Part shown: positions 3,155 to 47,166 of the stretch, in pieces
Layout of the letters: every line of letters begins with the position of its first letter
Position numbering within the stretch: position 1 is the stretch's first letter
NCBI RefSeq assembly: GCF_044324875.1
Contig: NZ_CP172185.1
DNA length: 64,000 bases
Strand: one strand, 5' to 3'
Source of the DNA: Escherichia coli
GTDB taxonomy: Bacteria > Pseudomonadota > Gammaproteobacteria > Enterobacterales > Enterobacteriaceae
The notes under the pieces: generated by a model
Seen by the model: only the letters and a program-made list of their open reading frames with translations
Told to the model about the DNA's origin: nothing
Database searches by the model: none
Made by a program: the position numbers and the translations under genes

Positions 3155-3886
3155 TCAGGCTGTTACCAAAGAAGTTGCAACCTGGCGCTCATCAGAAATA
3201 ATGTGCGTTACCTCATCCAGATGCCCGATGCGGGCTTCCCCTGAACGATTAAATTTACTTTTATCAATCAATAACAACGATTGCGCGGCGCGTTTTAATA
3301 GCATTGATTTGTAATCAGCGTTGATGGCATTGGAGTCCCACAGTGCGCCGCTGCTATCGATCCCTTCACAAGAAAAAATAAACAGATCGATTTCCAGCGA
3401 TTTAAGTTGAGAAATCAGCGAGGGATTGACGTAACAGCCATATTTGCGCTCAAGTGTGCCGCCGGAACTGATCAGTTGAATGCGTTCGCGTTTACCGAGT
3501 TCATGGCAAATCGGATGGCTATTGGTGAAGACCTGGATGTTGATGTCAGGCAACTGGCGTGCCAGATACCAGCAGGTTGAACTTGCGTCTAAGGCTATTA
3601 CCATCCCTTCTTCAATCCACGCGAGCGCCTCGCGCGCGATATCTGCTTTATGCGCATAATGGCTTTTCAGCCGGATGTGAAAGGGATCGCCACTGTCTTG
3701 ATTTTGACGGTGGATATATTTAGCGCGCCCATGATTGCGCAGAATTTTACCCTGCGTCTGTAATTCATTGAGATCGCGACGAATGGTTTCTTTACTGACC
3801 TTTAGCTGTTCAGAGAGAGCTTCCGTGGTCAGGCTGGTATGGTTCAGCAGCAGGTCGACTATCGCTTGCTGGCGTGCCGCTTTCAT
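3155..3886 (-). CDS. fucR: DeoR-family L-fucose operon activator FucR
   Basis: ORF runs to 3895 (MKNMKAARQQ...); K-12 FucR begins MKAARQQAIVDLLLNHTSL, so start at 3886 is preferred; DeoR HTH plus sugar-binding domain. Confidence 0.9.
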   Translation of the reverse strand: MKAARQQAIVDLLLNHTSLTTEALSEQLKVSKETIRRDLNELQTQGKILRNHGRAKYIHRQNQDSGDPFHIRLKSHYAHKADIAREALAWIEEGMVIALDASSTCWYLARQLPDINIQVFTNSHPICHELGKRERIQLISSGGTLERKYGCYVNPSLISQLKSLEIDLFIFSCEGIDSSGALWDSNAINADYKSMLLKRAAQSLLLIDKSKFNRSGEARIGHLDEVTHIISDERQVATSLVTA

Positions 3887-7702: not shown

Positions 7703-9019
7703 TCAGTTAGTTGCCGTTTGAGAACGGAAACGGGCAAAGATAAAGATGACCGCGAAGCAGAGTGCGGGGATCAGTTCAGCAGTGGGGATGTTGCCCGCCG
7801 CGTCACTGACAAAACCCATGACCGGAGTGACAATACCGCCGCCAATAATGGTCATAACGATGAAGGACGAACCGTATTTGGTGTCCTGGCCGAGATTCTT
7901 AATGCCCAGCGAGAAGATTGTTGGGTACTGAATCGACATAAAGGCACTGCATAATGTCAGGGCTATTAAGCCCACATGACCGCCAGCGAAGGCTGAGATC
8001 AGGCACAGTGCCATAGCGATTAATGCGTAGGCTGCCAGGACTTTGTGTGGTGCGAAGCGACTGATGAGCCAGGTACCGGTGAAACGACCAATAAAGAAGC
8101 ACACCATGGTTCCGGTTAAATAGTTAGCGGCAAAGCCTGCGGTCATACCTGGAATTTCTTCTACAGCGTAGCGAATCAAATAGCTCCAGCAGGCCGTTTG
8201 CGCGCCGACATAGCAGAATTGCGCTAATACCGCCCAGCGCCAGTGACGAATACGCGCCAGACGAGAAAGCGATGCGGAGAACGATCCTTGTTTGGCGTCA
8301 CTGTGATTATCACTCTGCAATGCCGGGAATTTCGTCAGCATGATCAGCAGGGCGACCAGTAACACGATAGCCACGATGATCATATAAGGTGTCTGTACCG
8401 ATAATACCAGGCTGTGTTTATACGCACTCAATTGCTCTGGAGACATTTTATCGAGAACGTCTTGCGATTGATGTGGCACGTTAGACAAAATAAGACTTTG
8501 CCCAAAGACAACCGCGATAATTGCGCCAAACGAGTTAAATGTTTGCGCAAGATTTAAGCGGAAGTGACCACTGCTTTCCGGCCCTAATACCGTAACAAAA
8601 GGGTTTGCGGCAGTTTCCAGACAACCTAATCCGGCTGCAATAATAAATAGGCCAACTAAAAATAAGGTGTAGTTCATTATTTCTGCAGCGGGCCAGAATA
8701 ATGCAGCGCCCAAGGCATATAAAAATAATCCGGTAATAATCCCTGCTTTATAACTGAGTTTTTTCATCAATATCCCAGCAGGGATTGGGATAATGAAATA
8801 ACCAAAGTAAAAGGCCGATTGGATCAGGCCAGCCTGGAAATTTGTCAGCGTAAAAGCCTGCTGGAATTGAGGTAATAAAATGTCGTTAAGGTTATTGGCT
8901 ACCGCCCAAAGAAAAAACAGTGAGCACAGCAGCGCGAATGGAATAATGTAACTTCTGCTTTGCCCTGCATCTTTATCTACCGCACGGTAACTCTGCGTTT
9001 GTATTGATGTGTTTCCCAT
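7703..9019 (-). CDS. fucP: L-fucose:H+ symporter FucP (MFS)
   Basis: 438-aa polytopic membrane ORF; synteny. Confidence 0.95.
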   Translation of the reverse strand: MGNTSIQTQSYRAVDKDAGQSRSYIIPFALLCSLFFLWAVANNLNDILLPQFQQAFTLTNFQAGLIQSAFYFGYFIIPIPAGILMKKLSYKAGIITGLFLYALGAALFWPAAEIMNYTLFLVGLFIIAAGLGCLETAANPFVTVLGPESSGHFRLNLAQTFNSFGAIIAVVFGQSLILSNVPHQSQDVLDKMSPEQLSAYKHSLVLSVQTPYMIIVAIVLLVALLIMLTKFPALQSDNHSDAKQGSFSASLSRLARIRHWRWAVLAQFCYVGAQTACWSYLIRYAVEEIPGMTAGFAANYLTGTMVCFFIGRFTGTWLISRFAPHKVLAAYALIAMALCLISAFAGGHVGLIALTLCSAFMSIQYPTIFSLGIKNLGQDTKYGSSFIVMTIIGGGIVTPVMGFVSDAAGNIPTAELIPALCFAVIFIFARFRSQTATN

Positions 9020-9565
9020 AGCATCCTCTTAGGTTCAGAAGCTTAAGCACGTAATCGGTTATGTTTTCAAAAGTGCAAAACCAGCGAGTTCGGGCTTCAT
9101 ATCAGTGAATATTTGCCTGTCAGAAATGAACTCATGGATTCATTTTCAAATAAAAAACGCTCTGTAATATGACGGCGGTCACACTTATTAGCTGGGAGGT
9201 GACTTTATGTGACTACCATCACTTTAATAATCGAAATTTCATGCCCGTTTCAGAAAATAAATCATAAAAAACACAAACCCGATGACCGTATTAATTGTTT
9301 GTGCCGAAAACGGGCATTTCTGGCGAGGGGGAATGGAAAAATGACCGTTTTGATAAATATTTTTAAGAGCGGTCATTTTTAATAGGGTTATAAAAAGAGA
9401 ACTTGCAGTTATTTACTGTGATTAGTTGAACCAGGTCACAAAATATAAGCTTGTGAATTTCTTTCTGGTTAATCAGGAAGAAGATGGTGGGTAATTAAAC
9501 GGCTAATTCAATAGTGTGAAAGGAACAACATTATTGCCCTGTTTTGAATCAGAGAGAGGTAGCTA
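9020..9565. promoter_or_regulatory. divergent fucPIK / fucAO control region
   Basis: 546-bp AT-rich spacer between divergent operons; repeated TGACCG/CGGTCA motifs (9170-9183, 9282-9289, inverted pair 9341-9347 and 9370-9376) and inverted repeat ATGCCCGTTT (9241-9250) / AAACGGGCAT (9309-9318). Confidence 0.6.
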
Positions 9566-10213
9566 ATGGAACGAAATAAACTTGCTCGTCAGATTATTGA
9601 CACTTGCCTGGAAATGACCCGCCTGGGACTGAACCAGGGGACAGCGGGTAACGTCAGTGTACGTTATCAGGATGGGATGCTGATTACGCCTACAGGTATT
9701 CCATATGAAAAACTGACGGAGTCGCATATTGTCTTTATTGATGGCAACGGTAAACATGAGGAAGGAAAACTCCCCTCAAGCGAATGGCGTTTCCATATGG
9801 CGGCCTATCAAAGCAGACCGGATGCCAACGCGGTTGTTCACAATCATGCCGTTCATTGCACAGCAGTTTCCATTCTTAACCGACCGATCCCCGCTATTCA
9901 CTACATGATTGCGGCGGCTGGCGGTAATTCTATTCCTTGCGCGCGTTATGCGACCTTTGGAACACGCGAACTTTCTGAACATGTTGCGCTGGCTCTCAAA
10001 AATCGTAAGGCAACTTTGTTACAACATCATGGGCTTATCGCTTGTGAGGTGAATCTGGAAAAAGCGTTATGGCTGGCGCATGAAGTTGAAGTGCTGGCGC
10101 AACTTTACCTGACGACCCTGGCGATTACGGACCCGGTGCCAGTGCTGAGCGATGAAGAGATTGCCGTAGTGCTGGAGAAATTCAAAACCTACGGGTTACG
10201 GATTGAAGAGTAA
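9566..10213 (+). CDS. fucA: L-fuculose-1-phosphate aldolase FucA
   Basis: 215-aa class II aldolase ORF beginning MERNKLARQIIDTCLEMTRLGLNQGTAGNVS. Confidence 0.95.
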   Translation: MERNKLARQIIDTCLEMTRLGLNQGTAGNVSVRYQDGMLITPTGIPYEKLTESHIVFIDGNGKHEEGKLPSSEWRFHMAAYQSRPDANAVVHNHAVHCTAVSILNRPIPAIHYMIAAAGGNSIPCARYATFGTRELSEHVALALKNRKATLLQHHGLIACEVNLEKALWLAHEVEVLAQLYLTTLAITDPVPVLSDEEIAVVLEKFKTYGLRIEE

Positions 10214-43260: not shown

Positions 43261-44538
43261 TTACTTGCTGCTAGCCATAGCAGGGGCGCTATCAGCAGTA
43301 CGAATTTTTTGGAACAGCAAAAAGGTAAAGACGATCACCATGGCAAGCGCCGCCATGCCCATCAGCCACATATTGCGGTAGGCTTCTGCAGCGGGCAGGG
43401 TGTCTTGCCAGTAGCCGATAATCGGGTAAACGAAGACATCCGGCAGGAATCCAATCACCGAACAAATACCTACCGTGGTGCCCATAATGTAAGACGGTGT
43501 TCTCGCTTCGCCAGGGCAGGCCCAGTACAGCCCGCGTGAGGCGTAACAGGTGAATCCCAGCAGTAAAATCAGGCCAATCCCCATCGCGACCGATTGCGGG
43601 TTAGAGTTCGTGACGAGCAGGGCAGTTAACGCCAGCAAGCCGAGTACGGAAAGGATTTGGATCACGCGGGTAGGGGATTTCACTTTGCTGTAGGTGGTGA
43701 TAATGCCACCAAGTGGGCCGCACAGTGCGCGGAAGATTTTGTTGATCACAATCCCCATGTAGCTCGCCGCCACCAGCGACATGCCGTACATTTCGGTCAG
43801 ATAGTTGGTGGAGTAACTCAGAATGGCGTAGATGGTGAAGACACCAAAAATCACCATGCTGCAATACCAGGTGGTGCTGATGCGCAAAACAGCCAGGATG
43901 TCGCTAAGCTGGAATGACTGTTTTTCTTCGTTATTGGTATTGCACAGGTTGTTGTTATCGCTAACAAAAAACCAACACAAAATGCCCAGCAGAATGTAAA
44001 CCACACTATAGATAATAATGACCGTTTTCAGGCTGGCGCTGTCATCCGGTGCAAAGCGAGAAAAGACCCACATGGTAAACACCGCCAGCGACATTACACC
44101 GACGCCGCGCAGCCCTTCCATCCAGCCCATAATTTTCCCTTGCTCGCTATGATCGCCCAGCAACGAGGCGGCTTTAATCGACACCGACCACAGCATTAAA
44201 ATAGTGGTTATCGCAAAGGCGACCTGAATACAGAGCATTACCCACAGCGGTGGATATGTTGCCATTAACAGACCCAGTAATCCGGTAATGATCATCGCGG
44301 AAGTAATCATTTTGCGGTGTGAAAATTTATCGGCAATAACGCCGCTGGGGGCATAAAGAATAATAGCCGCAATACCAAAGGTACTCATTATTAAACCTAT
44401 CTCGGTATTGCTGAATCCCATAAATTTCGCCATGGGAATTTGATAAATATAACGTAAATAAGCCAGGTCGAAACTAACGCCGCCGCTAAAACTAATTATC
44501 GCGAGGGTTATCCAACGGCGATATGAGTTGTGTTGCAT
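43261..44538 (-). CDS. yqcE: MFS transporter YqcE
   Basis: 425-aa polytopic MFS ORF; synteny. Confidence 0.8.
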   Translation of the reverse strand: MQHNSYRRWITLAIISFSGGVSFDLAYLRYIYQIPMAKFMGFSNTEIGLIMSTFGIAAIILYAPSGVIADKFSHRKMITSAMIITGLLGLLMATYPPLWVMLCIQVAFAITTILMLWSVSIKAASLLGDHSEQGKIMGWMEGLRGVGVMSLAVFTMWVFSRFAPDDSASLKTVIIIYSVVYILLGILCWFFVSDNNNLCNTNNEEKQSFQLSDILAVLRISTTWYCSMVIFGVFTIYAILSYSTNYLTEMYGMSLVAASYMGIVINKIFRALCGPLGGIITTYSKVKSPTRVIQILSVLGLLALTALLVTNSNPQSVAMGIGLILLLGFTCYASRGLYWACPGEARTPSYIMGTTVGICSVIGFLPDVFVYPIIGYWQDTLPAAEAYRNMWLMGMAALAMVIVFTFLLFQKIRTADSAPAMASSK

Positions 44539-44856: not shown

Positions 44857-45642
44857 ATGTCAATCGAATCTCTCAATGCGTTCTCAATGGATTTTTTCTC
44901 CCTGAAAGGCAAAACCGCAATTGTTACCGGCGGGAATAGCGGTTTAGGCCAGGCATTTGCCATGGCGCTGGCCAAAGCAGGCGCAAATATCTTTATTCCA
45001 AGCTTCGTTAAAGATAACGGCGAAACAAAGGAAATGATTGAAAAACAGGGTGTTGAGGTGGACTTCATGCAGGTGGATATCACCGCAGAAGGCGCGCCGC
45101 AGAAGATAATCGCCGCCTGTTGCGAACGTTTCGGTACCGTCGATATTCTGATTAACAATGCCGGTATTTGTAAGCTGAATAAGGTGCTGGACTTCGGTCG
45201 TGCCGACTGGGACCCGATGATTGATGTGAACCTGACCGCCGCATTCGAGTTAAGCTATGAAGCTGCAAAAATTATGATCCCGCAGAAAAGCGGTAAAATC
45301 ATTAATATCTGTTCATTATTCTCTTACTTAGGTGGACAATGGTCACCTGCATATTCTGCCACTAAACATGCTCTTGCCGGATTCACCAAAGCTTATTGTG
45401 ATGAACTAGGTCAATATAATATTCAGGTAAATGGTATTGCCCCTGGCTATTATGCAACAGATATTACGCTGGCGACACGCAGTAATCCAGAAACTAATCA
45501 GCGCGTTCTTGATCATATTCCGGCAAACCGTTGGGGCGATACTCAGGATTTAATGGGCGCAGCCGTATTCCTCGCAAGTCCGGCTTCAAATTATGTTAAC
45601 GGGCATTTATTAGTGGTCGATGGCGGTTATTTAGTGCGCTAA
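44857..45642 (+). CDS. ygcW: short-chain dehydrogenase/reductase YgcW (KduD-like)
   Basis: ORF from 44782, but MSIESLNAF at 44857 with a GGAG RBS is preferred; TGGNSGLG Rossmann motif and YxxxK. Confidence 0.85.
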   Translation: MSIESLNAFSMDFFSLKGKTAIVTGGNSGLGQAFAMALAKAGANIFIPSFVKDNGETKEMIEKQGVEVDFMQVDITAEGAPQKIIAACCERFGTVDILINNAGICKLNKVLDFGRADWDPMIDVNLTAAFELSYEAAKIMIPQKSGKIINICSLFSYLGGQWSPAYSATKHALAGFTKAYCDELGQYNIQVNGIAPGYYATDITLATRSNPETNQRVLDHIPANRWGDTQDLMGAAVFLASPASNYVNGHLLVVDGGYLVR

Positions 45643-45711: not shown

Positions 45712-47166
45712 ATGTCTTTATCTCGCGCAGCGATTGTCGACCAGCTAAAGAAAATTGTTGGTGCAGATCGCGTAATTACCGATGAAACAGTATTAAAGAA
45801 GAACAGTATTGACCGTTTTCGCAAATTTCCGGATATTCATGGCATTTATACTTTGCCGATTCCGGCAGCGGTCGTAAAACTCGGTTCCACAGAACAAGTA
45901 TCCCGTGTGCTGAATTTTATGAATGCGCACAAAATTAACGGTGTGCCGCGTACCGGTGCTTCCGCTACCGAAGGTGGGCTGGAAACCGTTGTGGAAAACT
46001 CGGTGGTGCTCGACGGCTCTGCCATGAATCAAATCATTAATATTGATATTGAGAATATGCAGGCCACGGCGCAATGCGGAGTTCCGCTGGAAGTGCTGGA
46101 AAACGCGTTGCGTGAAAAAGGTTACACCACGGGGCATTCTCCGCAGTCAAAGCCGCTGGCGCAGATGGGCGGCCTGGTAGCAACCCGCAGTATCGGGCAG
46201 TTCTCCACACTCTACGGCGCAATCGAAGATATGGTCGTTGGTCTGGAAGCAGTATTGGCTGATGGCACCGTAACACGCATTAAAAACGTACCACGCCGCG
46301 CGGCAGGCCCGGACATTCGTCACATCATCATCGGCAACGAAGGTGCATTGTGCTATATCACTGAAGTAACAGTGAAAATCTTTAAGTTCACCCCGGAAAA
46401 CAACCTCTTCTACGGCTATATCCTGGAAGACATGAAAACCGGCTTCAACATCCTACGTGAAATCATGGTGGAAGGGTATCGTCCGTCGATCGCTCGTTTG
46501 TATGACGCTGAAGATGGCACCCAACACTTCACCCATTTTGCCGACGGAAAATGCGTGCTGATCTTTATGGCTGAAGGTAACCCTCGCATTGCGAAGGCGA
46601 CGGGCGAAGGGATTGCTGAAATCGTGGCACGTTACCCGCAATGCCAGCGAGTGGACAGCAAGCTGATCGAAACCTGGTTTAACAACCTGAACTGGGGACC
46701 GGATAAAGTAGCTGCCGAACGTGTGCAGATCCTCAAAACCGGCAACATGGGCTTTACCACCGAAGTGTCCGGCTGCTGGAGCTGCATTCACGAAATCTAC
46801 GAAAGCGTTATTAACCGTATTCGTACCGAGTTCCCGCACGCCGACGACATCACCATGCTGGGCGGTCACTCCTCTCATAGCTATCAGAACGGCACCAACA
46901 TGTACTTCGTCTACGACTACAACGTCGTTGACTGTAAGCCGGAAGAGGAAATCGACAAGTACCACAATCCGCTCAACAAAATCATCTGCGAAGAAACCAT
47001 TCGCCTCGGTGGTTCGATGGTGCACCACCACGGTATCGGTAAACATCGCGTTCACTGGAGCAAACTGGAACACGGCAGCGCGTGGGCGTTGCTGGAAGGG
47101 CTGAAAAAGCAGTTCGATCCTAACGGCATTATGAATACGGGTACTATCTATCCGATTGAAAAATAA
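45712..47166 (+). CDS. ygcU: FAD-linked oxidoreductase YgcU (GlcD / alkyl-DHAP synthase-like)
   Basis: 484-aa ORF with FAD-binding PCMH domain. Confidence 0.85.
   Translation: MSLSRAAIVDQLKKIVGADRVITDETVLKKNSIDRFRKFPDIHGIYTLPIPAAVVKLGSTEQVSRVLNFMNAHKINGVPRTGASATEGGLETVVENSVVLDGSAMNQIINIDIENMQATAQCGVPLEVLENALREKGYTTGHSPQSKPLAQMGGLVATRSIGQFSTLYGAIEDMVVGLEAVLADGTVTRIKNVPRRAAGPDIRHIIIGNEGALCYITEVTVKIFKFTPENNLFYGYILEDMKTGFNILREIMVEGYRPSIARLYDAEDGTQHFTHFADGKCVLIFMAEGNPRIAKATGEGIAEIVARYPQCQRVDSKLIETWFNNLNWGPDKVAAERVQILKTGNMGFTTEVSGCWSCIHEIYESVINRIRTEFPHADDITMLGGHSSHSYQNGTNMYFVYDYNVVDCKPEEEIDKYHNPLNKIICEETIRLGGSMVHHHGIGKHRVHWSKLEHGSAWALLEGLKKQFDPNGIMNTGTIYPIEK

What the first reader, a model, noticed from the sequence alone, without database searches (positions are those of the whole stretch)
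9020..9565. Repeated TGACCG/CGGTCA motifs and inverted repeats in the fucPIK-fucAO divergent region
Several copies of a TGACCG half-site in both orientations, plus a 10-bp inverted repeat pair at 9241-9250 and 9309-9318, are candidate operator sites for FucR or another regulator in a 546-bp control region. Exact sites cannot be assigned from sequence alone.
Basis: inference. Interest (0 to 1): 0.25.

Follow-up and report, generated by a model that had tools for sequence, protein, structure and literature searches.

The report
FucR operator boxes, fucose control region
The repeated TGACCG words between the two divergent E. coli fucose operons are real, strongly conserved binding boxes for the fucose activator FucR (one copy belongs to a CRP site instead); the motif is already published and partly validated, so the finding is correct but ordinary.

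Summary
The 546-bp fucP/fucA intergenic region of this E. coli window has 4 exact TGACCG/CGGTCA hexamers against 0.12 expected, and 6 if TGCCCG/CGGGCA is allowed.

Five of the six copies are boxes of consensus AAACGG(T/G)CAT:
- B1: 9241-9253
- B2: 9282-9294
- B3: 9304-9318
- B4: 9341-9355
- B5: 9363-9377

They match the published FucR motif (Baumgart 2021, as quoted by Zhang et al. 2024). B3 and B5 are the operators OFucR2 and OFucR3, which were validated by mutagenesis in K-12. The sixth copy (9176-9181) is the TCACA half of CRP site OCrp0.

Across 46 orthologous regions, from Escherichia to Yersinia and Photorhabdus, the boxes keep their position, orientation and spacing. CGGTCA is the most enriched word in an unbiased k-mer search of those regions.

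The perfect 10-bp repeat is simply B1 plus B3. It depends on a strain polymorphism (K-12 has T at 9314) and shows no covariation between species.

New detail from this work is limited to three things: a five-box, two-module layout rigidly spaced from the CRP sites, a conserved non-canonical element at 9266-9276, and box B4, which the 2024 paper does not name. Verdict: already known, low interest.

The parts
9241..9253 (-). FucR box B1 (ATGCCCGTTTCAG; on the - strand CTGAAACGGGCAT). Its core centre lies 29 bp from the centre of CRP site OCrp1.
   Evidence: A position weight matrix trained on other genera scores it 15.1. It is conserved with the same orientation, and the 29-bp distance from OCrp1 holds from Escherichia to Yersinia in every genome that has a recognisable B1. 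It is a conservation island in the 27-genome alignment. It has not been tested experimentally in the papers I could read.
9266..9276 (.). Conserved non-canonical element B1' (AAAAAACACAA; in other genera tAAAA[CGA]CCACAg). It lies 28 bp after B1, where a partner box would be expected.
   Evidence: It is present at the same offset in 35 of 35 genomes that have module I, and it is a conservation island. It lacks the invariant CGG, so it is not a canonical FucR box. Its function is unknown.
9282..9294 (-). FucR box B2 (ATGACCGTATTAA; on the - strand TTAATACGGTCAT).
   Evidence: Matrix score 13.4. It lies 41-42 bp from B1 and 28 bp from B3 in genomes from Escherichia to Yersinia. It lies outside the minimal PfucAO fragment V5 (-270 to -1, i.e. 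9296-9565), which keeps full fucAO activity.
9304..9318 (+). FucR box B3, which is the published OFucR2 (window CCGAAAACGGGCATT; K-12 CCGAAAACGGTCATT).
   Evidence: PMC11011485 reports that mutating it lowers fucose-induced PfucAO by about 30%. Matrix score 19.8. The G/T difference at 9314 is shown. T and G interchange freely at this core position between species.
9341..9355 (-). FucR box B4 (ATGACCGTTTTGATA; on the - strand TATCAAAACGGTCAT). It is the best match to the consensus and forms an inverted pair with B5 (25-nt palindrome, 84% complementary).
   Evidence: Matrix score 23.1, the highest in the 64-kb window. The palindrome is I1. The 28-29 bp distance to B5 is conserved. PMC11011485 does not name it among its sites.
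9363..9377 (+). FucR box B5, which is the published OFucR3 (TTAAGAGCGGTCATT). It is the key activating site for PfucAO.
   Evidence: PMC11011485 reports that mutating it lowers fucose induction more than 50-fold. Matrix score 17.3. Its centre lies 59-60 bp from the OCrp2 centre in every genome where both were found, from Escherichia to Yersinia, although the sequence between them is not conserved. The core is CGGACA in several genera.
9165..9186 (.). CRP site OCrp0 (TAATATGACGGCGGTCACACTT, centre 9175.5). It contains the sixth 'CGGTCA' copy (9176-9181).
   Evidence: One mismatch to TGTGA-N6-TCACA, and conserved in all genera. This copy is always CGGTCAC followed by A. The IS5 target at -374..-371 lies between OCrp0 and OCrp1 according to PMC11894529, which fits these coordinates.
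9205..9226 (.). CRP site OCrp1 (TTATGTGACTACCATCACTTTA, centre 9215.5).
   Evidence: One mismatch to the CRP consensus, and 39-40 bp from OCrp0 in nearly all genera. It is a conservation island.
9422..9443 (.). CRP site OCrp2 (TTAGTTGAACCAGGTCACAAAA, centre 9432.5, i.e. -70.5 from the fucA transcription start). It is essential for PfucAO.
   Evidence: The sequence is given in PMC11011485. Located and conserved.
9512..9533 (.). CRP site OCrp3 (TAGTGTGAAAGGAACAACATTA), in the fucA 5' UTR.
   Evidence: The sequence is given in PMC11011485. Located.
9493..9503 (+). PfucAO -10 element (AATTAA, 9493-9498) and transcription start C (9503, which is -63 from the fucA ATG).
   Evidence: 5'RACE result in PMC11011485, mapped to the window.
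9127..9158 (-). Conserved core of the fucPIKUR promoter. The inferred -10 is GAAAAT (9147-9142) and the inferred start is near 9134, which would put OCrp0 at -41.5 and OCrp1 at -81.5.
   Evidence: It is a conservation island. The start position is my inference from the CRP geometry. PMC11894529 says only that the fucP start is a 'T' near OCrp0. The simple consensus scan finds no sigma-70 match, which is expected for activator-dependent promoters.
9075..9085 (-). Reported SrsR (YgfI) site gCtGgTTTTGC, in the fucP leader. It is unrelated to the TGACCG boxes.
   Evidence: Table in PMC9181523. Located.
3155..3886 (-). fucR, the cognate regulator (243 aa, DeoR family).
   Evidence: Annotated as 'L-fucose operon activator'. 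Pfam finds HTH_DeoR (E 6.6e-23) and DeoRC (E 1.6e-45).
7703..9019 (-). fucP, the first gene of fucPIKUR.
9566..10213 (+). fucA, the first gene of fucAO.

Best explanation
The TGACCG/CGGTCA words are the cores of five roughly 12-bp operator boxes, AAACGG(T/G)CAT, for FucR. FucR is the DeoR-family activator of the L-fucose regulon and responds to fuculose-1-phosphate. The boxes lie in the middle of the divergent fucPIKUR/fucAO control region, flanked on each side by the CRP sites of the two promoters.

They form two modules:
- Module I: OCrp0, OCrp1, then B1 29 bp on, the B1' element 28 bp after B1, B2 41 bp after B1, and B3 28 bp after B2. It is rigidly spaced on the fucP side.
- Module II: B4, B5 28 bp on, then OCrp2 59-60 bp on, and PfucAO. 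It is rigidly spaced on the fucA side.

Only the B3-B4 linker varies in length.

The proposed mechanism is this. When fucose is metabolised, FucR loaded with inducer occupies the boxes, probably as an oligomer contacting inverted pairs TGMCCG-N22-CGGKCA. This helps CRP-cAMP bind its neighbouring sites, and CRP recruits RNA polymerase at both weak promoters.

What is shown and what is inferred:
- Shown in the literature, for K-12: dependence on FucR and CRP, loss of induction when B5 or B3 is mutated, and the FucR motif.
- Shown here: enrichment, conservation, orientation and spacing of all five boxes, and the fact that one copy belongs to CRP.
- Inferred: FucR occupancy of B1, B2 and B4; the pairing; the oligomeric state; the two-module reading; and the fucP transcription start.
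For: - Enrichment: 4 exact copies against 0.12 expected, and 6 against 0.23 with the variant; 0 of 5000 shuffles reach either count.
- Match to the published FucR consensus, and identity of B3 and B5 with OFucR2 and OFucR3, whose mutation cuts fucose induction by about 30% and more than 50-fold respectively (PMC11011485).
- An unbiased k-mer search over 20 genera puts CGGTCA first (61 occurrences against 2.9 expected, z 34), followed by ACGGTC, AAACGG and CGGGCA.
- Box positions, orientations and spacings are conserved from Escherichia to Yersinia. An alignment of 27 genomes shows the boxes and CRP sites as conservation islands separated by unconserved spacers.
- A matrix trained without the window finds five hits scoring 13.4-23.1 within 9237-9380, and no comparable cluster elsewhere in the 64 kb.
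- Specificity control: 4.24 boxes per 600 bp upstream of fucA in 46 loci linked to fucP, 0.38 in 34 unlinked loci with a fucA homologue, and 0.02 in coding DNA.
- The cognate regulator fucR is encoded in the same cluster and is a DeoR-family protein.
- PMC11894529 speaks of four known FucR sites, two of them putative ones serving PfucPIKR.
Against: - No footprint or gel-shift result for FucR on this DNA was available to me. Podolny 1999 and Baumgart 2021 are not held, so direct binding to B1, B2 and B4 is not documented here.
- The minimal fucAO fragment V5 (9296-9565) keeps full activity without B1 and B2, so those two boxes are not needed for fucAO. Their role at fucPIKUR is inferred.
- A biosensor study fitted a Hill coefficient of 1, which does not suggest cooperative multi-site binding, although it measured the response to fucose dose rather than DNA binding.
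- A 28-bp distance between cores is not a whole number of helical turns, so the pairing geometry is uncertain.
- B1' lacks the invariant CGG, so the idea of a third pair is weak.
Confidence: 0.9

Rival explanations
1. The hexamers recur by chance or because of base composition in an AT-rich spacer, and have no function.
For: Short words recur in any 546-bp stretch. The repeat finder lists 21 inverted and 9 direct repeat families in the region, most of them plainly chance.
Against: None of 5000 local shuffles reaches the observed count. The boxes are conserved in place and orientation across about 20 genera, while the spacers between them are not. Published mutagenesis of two of them abolishes or reduces induction.
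Confidence: 0.01
2. The motifs are CRP half-sites (GGTCACA resembles TCACA), so the repeats reflect multiple CRP sites rather than FucR.
For: The copy at 9176-9181 lies inside TATGA-N6-TCACA, which is OCrp0. The 'aggtcac' at 9434-9440 lies inside OCrp2. In other genera the CGGTCAC hits near -145 are also OCrp2.
Against: The other five boxes are followed by T rather than C, so they read CGGKCAT and not TCACA. They have no TGTGA partner 6 bp away, and none is within 2 mismatches of the CRP consensus. They match the FucR consensus instead.
Confidence: 0.03
3. The perfect 10-bp inverted repeat (9241-9250 and 9308-9317) works as a unit: a long-range palindromic operator, or a cruciform or hairpin in DNA or RNA.
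For: The repeat is perfect in this strain (I13). Folded as single-stranded DNA, 9236-9322 gives -11.2 kcal/mol, z = -2.0, and 6 of 200 shuffles fold as well.
Against: K-12 has a mismatch in the repeat (T at the position of 9314) yet has a functional regulon. Across 35 genomes the variable core letter is the same in both arms in only 20, so there is no covariation. The fold is only marginally better than shuffles. There is no Rfam match. The spacing that is conserved is the 28-bp pairing of B2 with B3 and of B4 with B5.
Confidence: 0.03
4. The boxes are bound by a regulator other than FucR, for example SrsR or another DeoR-type protein, and the published FucR motif is a misassignment.
For: The FucR motif comes from a high-throughput in vitro assay that I could not read directly. 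The mutagenesis in PMC11011485 shows loss of fucose induction, not binding as such.
Against: Induction requires fucR. The boxes accompany the fucP-fucA arrangement and are absent upstream of most unlinked fucA homologues. The reported SrsR site is a different word in a different place (9075-9085), and SrsR is not needed for fucAO.
Confidence: 0.04

Closest known systems
E. coli K-12 FucR operators OFucR2 and OFucR3 and the FucR DNA motif (Baumgart et al. 2021, as used by Zhang et al. 2024, PMC11011485; called OR0-OR3 in Zhang et al. 2025, PMC11894529)
   Same: It is the same locus, the same 546-bp region and the same motif. B5 is identical to OFucR3, and B3 is OFucR2 with one tolerated T-to-G change in the core. 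The CRP sites OCrp0 to OCrp3 and the fucA transcription start map exactly onto the window.
   Different: This strain's allele differs from K-12 at 14 of 546 positions. The 2024 paper names only two FucR sites, and the 2025 paper names four without giving positions in the text. Here five canonical boxes plus one conserved non-canonical element are resolved, with their orientation, 28-bp pairing and fixed distances to the CRP sites.
Multi-operator control regions of other DeoR-family regulators (GlpR, DeoR, AgaR, UlaR). This comparison rests on my own knowledge of those systems and was not tested here.
   Same: The regulator is a DeoR-type protein with an HTH domain and a sugar-phosphate sensor domain. 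It has several repeated boxes spread over more than 100 bp of a divergent control region, which suggests oligomeric binding.
   Different: Those regulators are repressors released by their sugar phosphate. FucR is an activator that needs its sugar phosphate (PMC11011485). DNA looping or oligomerisation by FucR is not shown.
CRP-dependent co-activation by a sugar-specific activator bound upstream of CRP (for example MelR, AraC, RhaS or MalT with CRP). This comparison rests on my own knowledge and is about how it works, not membership.
   Same: The promoters are weak and lack a consensus match. The specific activator's boxes lie upstream of a CRP site at a fixed distance, 29 bp on the fucP side and 59-60 bp on the fucA side. 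The published model is that FucR helps CRP to bind.
   Different: The activator family is different (DeoR rather than AraC or MalT), and a single central array is shared by two divergent promoters.

Membership tests
FucR operator box | The sequence matches the published FucR consensus [GA][CT][CG][AC][AG][ATC][AT]CGG[TG]CA[TA][TCG], with CGG and CA invariant. | tested here: met
   B1 to B5 all carry CGG(T/G)CA preceded by an A-rich run and followed by T. A matrix built independently from other genera scores them 13.4-23.1. The consensus is quoted. The copy at 9176-9181 does not fit, because it reads CGGTCAC inside a CRP site.
FucR operator box | It lies in the control region of genes of the fuc regulon, with fucR encoded nearby. 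| tested here: met
   The boxes lie between fucP and fucA, and fucR is in the same cluster. FucR is a DeoR-family protein.
FucR operator box | It is conserved in orthologous control regions.
   46 orthologous regions were compared. Four to five boxes are conserved in position and orientation in most of them, they appear as conservation islands, and CGGTCA is the top word found de novo.
FucR operator box | Mutating the box reduces FucR-dependent induction by fucose. | not testable with these tools
   The literature covers only K-12: mutating B5 (OFucR3) lowers induction more than 50-fold and mutating B3 (OFucR2) by about 30%. B1, B2 and B4 have not been tested in the papers available to me.
FucR operator box | Purified FucR binds it directly (gel shift, footprint or DAP-seq peak). 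| not testable with these tools
   Zhang 2024 cites the Baumgart 2021 in vitro assay for OFucR2. Neither that paper nor Podolny 1999 is held.
CRP site (for the copy at 9176-9181) | TGTGA-N6-TCACA with few mismatches, conserved, at a class I or class II distance from a promoter. | tested here: met
   TATGAcggcggTCACA has one mismatch and is present in all genera, 39-40 bp from a second CRP site in nearly all of them. It fits the published placement of OCrp0 relative to the IS5 target. The -41.5 position depends on my inferred fucP start.
Palindromic operator or structured element formed by the 10-bp inverted repeat | Complementarity between the two arms is maintained in relatives. | tested here: not met
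   K-12 breaks the repeat. The variable letter agrees between the arms in 20 of 35 genomes, so there is no covariation. The fold z-score is only -2.0.

The most novel reading that the evidence does not exclude
The FucR sites are not two or four independent operators. They form a conserved five-box array with a sixth, non-canonical AAANCCACA element, built from inverted pairs TGMCCG-N22-CGGKCA and split into two rigid modules. Each module is locked at a fixed distance to the CRP site of one promoter: 29 bp to OCrp1 on the fucP side and 59-60 bp to OCrp2 on the fucA side.

On this reading FucR would be an architectural co-activator that positions CRP at both divergent promoters. B4 would be the obligatory partner of the critical OFucR3. 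OFucR2 would belong structurally to the fucP-side module, even though it has been assigned to fucAO.
Probability: 0.4. Interest if true: 0.3.

Novelty: already known. Interest (0 to 1): 0.15.

Why it matters
The result confirms that a reading of raw sequence can pick out true operator boxes, and that a simple comparison of orthologous regions is enough to assign them. The biology itself is textbook: FucR and CRP control of the fucose regulon. The motif and two of the sites were published between 2021 and 2025.

The modest added value is an explicit map, conserved across genera, of all five boxes and their fixed distances to the CRP sites. That map gives precise targets for finishing the dissection of the still uncharacterised fucPIKUR side (B1, B2, B4, B1', and the 29-bp and 59-60-bp spacers). 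It also helps in designing fucose biosensor promoters.

Tried and rejected
- Chance. Rejected by local shuffles and by conservation.
- All copies being equivalent. Rejected: the copy at 9176-9181 is part of CRP site OCrp0.
- The 10-bp inverted repeat as a functional palindrome or hairpin. Rejected: it is a strain polymorphism, shows no covariation and folds only weakly.
- A structured RNA in the region. There are no Rfam matches at E <= 1 in 8800-9800.
- Consensus sigma-70 promoters or terminators in the region. None were found, which fits activator-dependent promoters but does not help place the fucP start.
- Primary sources for FucR binding and the fucPIK promoter. Podolny 1999 (PMC94201) and Baumgart 2021 are not held, so the positions of the 'putative OR0 and OR1' sites of PMC11894529 could not be matched to B1, B2 or B4.
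- Further literature searches for DAP-seq or RegPrecise data on FucR. They added nothing.
- B1' as a CRP site, an IHF site or a promoter element. Checked by eye only, and no convincing match; it remains unexplained.
- Other FucR targets in the window. The isolated matrix hits at 44014, 45591 and 45805 lie inside long ORFs and are not clustered, so I treat them as chance.

Full report
**What the window is.** The 546-bp stretch 9020-9565 is the divergent control region between fucP (7703-9019, minus strand) and fucA (9566-10213, plus strand) of Escherichia coli. fucI, fucK, fucU and fucR follow fucP, and fucO follows fucA. The region is 100% identical to several sequenced strains and is present in 5024 of 5426 complete E. 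coli genomes. It differs from K-12 MG1655 at 14 of 546 positions.

**Checking the observation.** The exact hexamer TGACCG occurs four times in the region, twice in each orientation: 9176-9181(-), 9283-9288(+), 9342-9347(+) and 9370-9375(-). In 5000 dinucleotide-preserving shuffles of the region the mean count is 0.12 and none reaches 4. With the one-letter variant TG[AC]CCG there are six copies against 0.23 expected. The perfect 10-bp inverted repeat exists: ATGCCCGTTT at 9241-9250 and AAACGGGCAT at 9308-9317 (I13).

**What the copies are.** Zhang et al. 2024 (PMC11011485) dissected this exact 546-bp region in K-12. They quote the FucR motif from the Baumgart 2021 in vitro binding assay, ..A A A A CGG T/G CA T T, with CGG and CA invariant. 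They mutated two sites:
- OFucR2, CCGAAAACGGTCATT: fucose induction of PfucAO fell by about 30%.
- OFucR3, TTAAGAGCGGTCATT: induction fell more than 50-fold.

In the window OFucR3 is 9363-9377, unchanged. OFucR2 is 9304-9318 with CGGGCA instead of CGGTCA, which is the G/T difference at 9314. Their CRP sites OCrp2 (9422-9443) and OCrp3 (9512-9533), the -10 element (9493-9498) and the 5'RACE start site (C at -63, which is 9503) all map exactly. A later paper from the same group (PMC11894529) speaks of four known FucR sites, with OR0 and OR1 called 'putative' for PfucPIKR, but the text gives no positions.

**Independent test by comparison.** A scan of one genome per species with FucA returned 80 loci. 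Of these, 46 have fucP divergently upstream, with intergenic regions of 419-665 bp. The results were as follows:
- In 20 representative genera an unbiased k-mer count ranks CGGTCA/TGACCG first (61 occurrences against 2.9 expected), followed by ACGGTC, AAACGG and CGGGCA.
- The boxes keep their place and orientation. In the window they sit at -324(-), -283(-), -255(+), -224(-) and -196(+) relative to the fucA ATG, and the same pattern appears in Escherichia, Klebsiella, Raoultella, Citrobacter, Salmonella, Kluyvera and Enterobacter. The first four, and in most cases a fifth with core CGGACA, extend to Hafnia, Buttiauxella and Yersinia.
- T and G interchange freely at core position 4 between species, so the window's G at 9314 is within normal variation. 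Both alleles are common in E. coli: 1806 genomes match the 38-mer carrying G exactly, and 1221 match with one mismatch, among them K-12-derived laboratory strains.
- A 27-genome alignment shows the five boxes, the CRP sites and the two core promoters as conservation islands. The spacers 9186-9199, 9319-9338 and 9380-9420 are not conserved.
- A weight matrix trained without the window finds five hits scoring 13.4-23.1 within 9237-9380 and no comparable cluster elsewhere in the 64 kb.
- As a control, loci linked to fucP carry 4.24 boxes per 600 bp upstream of fucA, unlinked loci with a fucA homologue carry 0.38, and coding DNA carries 0.02.

**The sixth copy is CRP.** The copy at 9176-9181 always reads CGGTCAC followed by A. 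It sits in TATGA-N6-TCACA, one mismatch from the CRP consensus, 40 bp from a second CRP site, TGTGActaccaTCACT (centre 9215.5). These are OCrp0 and OCrp1. The IS5 target that PMC11894529 places between them, at -374..-371, falls at 9192-9195, between my two sites.

**The 10-bp inverted repeat.** Its arms are boxes B1 and B3. It is perfect only because this strain has G at 9314; K-12 has T. Across 35 genomes the variable letter agrees between the two arms in 20, so there is no covariation. Folded as single-stranded DNA the segment is only marginally more stable than shuffles (z = -2.0), and there is no Rfam match. It is therefore a coincidence of two copies of one box, not a unit.

**Architecture (my inference from spacing).** Centre-to-centre distances are:

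| Interval | Distance |
|---|---|
| OCrp0 to OCrp1 | 39-40 bp |
| OCrp1 to B1 | 29 bp in every genome with a recognisable B1, from Escherichia to Yersinia |
| B1 to B2 | 41-42 bp |
| B2 to B3 | 28 bp |
| B3 to B4 | 27-31 bp in most genera, 38-53 bp in Yersinia |
| B4 to B5 | 28-29 bp |
| B5 to OCrp2 | 59-60 bp in every genome where both were found, although the intervening sequence is unconserved |

The recurring unit is the inverted pair TGMCCG-N22-CGGKCA, seen as B2/B3 and B4/B5. B4/B5 is also a 25-nt palindrome that is 84% complementary (I1). Exactly 28 bp after B1, where a partner box would lie, there is a conserved but non-canonical element. It reads AAAAAACACAA in E. coli and tAAAA[CGA]CCACAg elsewhere, and it is present in 35 of 35 genomes with this module. 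It lacks CGG, and its role is unexplained.

This suggests two rigid modules joined by one flexible linker. The fucP-side module contains OCrp0, OCrp1, B1, B1', B2 and B3. The fucA-side module contains B4, B5, OCrp2 and PfucAO. This fits the published finding that the fragment from -270 (9296-9565, which lacks B1 and B2) gives full fucAO activity, and that OFucR3 is critical while OFucR2 is minor. B4 is the best consensus match in the window, yet the 2024 paper does not name it.

**Mechanism.** FucR in this window is a 243-aa DeoR-family protein with HTH_DeoR and DeoRC domains. The published model is that FucR bound to fuculose-1-phosphate helps CRP occupy its upstream site, and CRP then recruits RNA polymerase. 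The absence of any consensus sigma-70 match and the fixed distances between FucR boxes and CRP sites on both sides fit that model and extend it to the fucP side. Still inferred are FucR occupancy of B1, B2 and B4, the oligomeric state, and the fucP start near 9134, which would put OCrp0 at -41.5 and OCrp1 at -81.5.

**Verdict.** The thing itself is already known: a published motif with two sites validated and two more mentioned. The extra detail obtained here (a five-box conserved layout, 28-bp pairing, fixed distances to CRP, the B1' element, and one copy reassigned to CRP) is incremental. Interest is low.

Noticed in passing
window 9192-9195: In K-12, IS5 always inserts at the target CTAG (-374..-371 from fucA) to activate fucAO and allow growth on propanediol. 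In this strain that site reads CTGG, with G instead of A at 9194. If the exact target matters, this strain may be unable to take that adaptive route at the same site.
   Followed up: partly
window 9266-9276: There is a conserved non-canonical element (AAAAAACACAA; tAAAA[CGA]CCACAg in other genera) exactly 28 bp after FucR box B1. It is present in 35 of 35 genomes with that module but lacks the invariant CGG of FucR boxes. What binds it is unknown.
   Followed up: partly
window 9380-9420: The 59-60 bp distance between the FucR box B5 and the CRP site OCrp2 is the same in every genome where both were found, from Escherichia to Yersinia, although the sequence between them is poorly conserved. This implies a constraint on spacing or helical phase rather than on sequence.
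   Followed up: partly
window 9278-9335: Nine of the 14 differences from K-12 in the 546-bp region cluster here, mostly in the spacers around boxes B2 and B3. Only one (9314) touches a box core. Only 483 of 5024 E. coli genomes are at least 99% identical to this allele of the region, so the spacer is unusually polymorphic.
   Followed up: partly
window 9451-9456 and 9470-9475: PMC11011485 gives the -35 element of PfucAO as TTGtgA at -96..-91. In both K-12 and this window those coordinates read TAATCA. [quoted passage not shown]
   Followed up: partly
window 44014-44033, 45591-45610, 45805-45824: These are three isolated matches to the FucR box matrix, scoring 16.9-17.3. All lie inside long ORFs, and two are 214 bp apart. 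They are probably chance, but I did not examine them further.
   Followed up: no
L042, L050, L054 (Edwardsiella), upstream of position 2501: These fucA loci have a divergent permease only about 40% identical to FucP. They still carry 2-4 FucR-type boxes upstream of fucA, which suggests the same regulator working with a different transporter.
   Followed up: no
summary (E. coli genome collection): About 400 of 5426 complete E. coli genomes have no match to this control region. One copy of the region lies on a plasmid.
   Followed up: no
window 9075-9085: The reported SrsR (YgfI) site gCtGgTTTTGC lies in the fucP leader, downstream of the inferred fucP start. That is an odd place for an activator, and Zhang 2024 found SrsR irrelevant to fucAO.
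   Followed up: no
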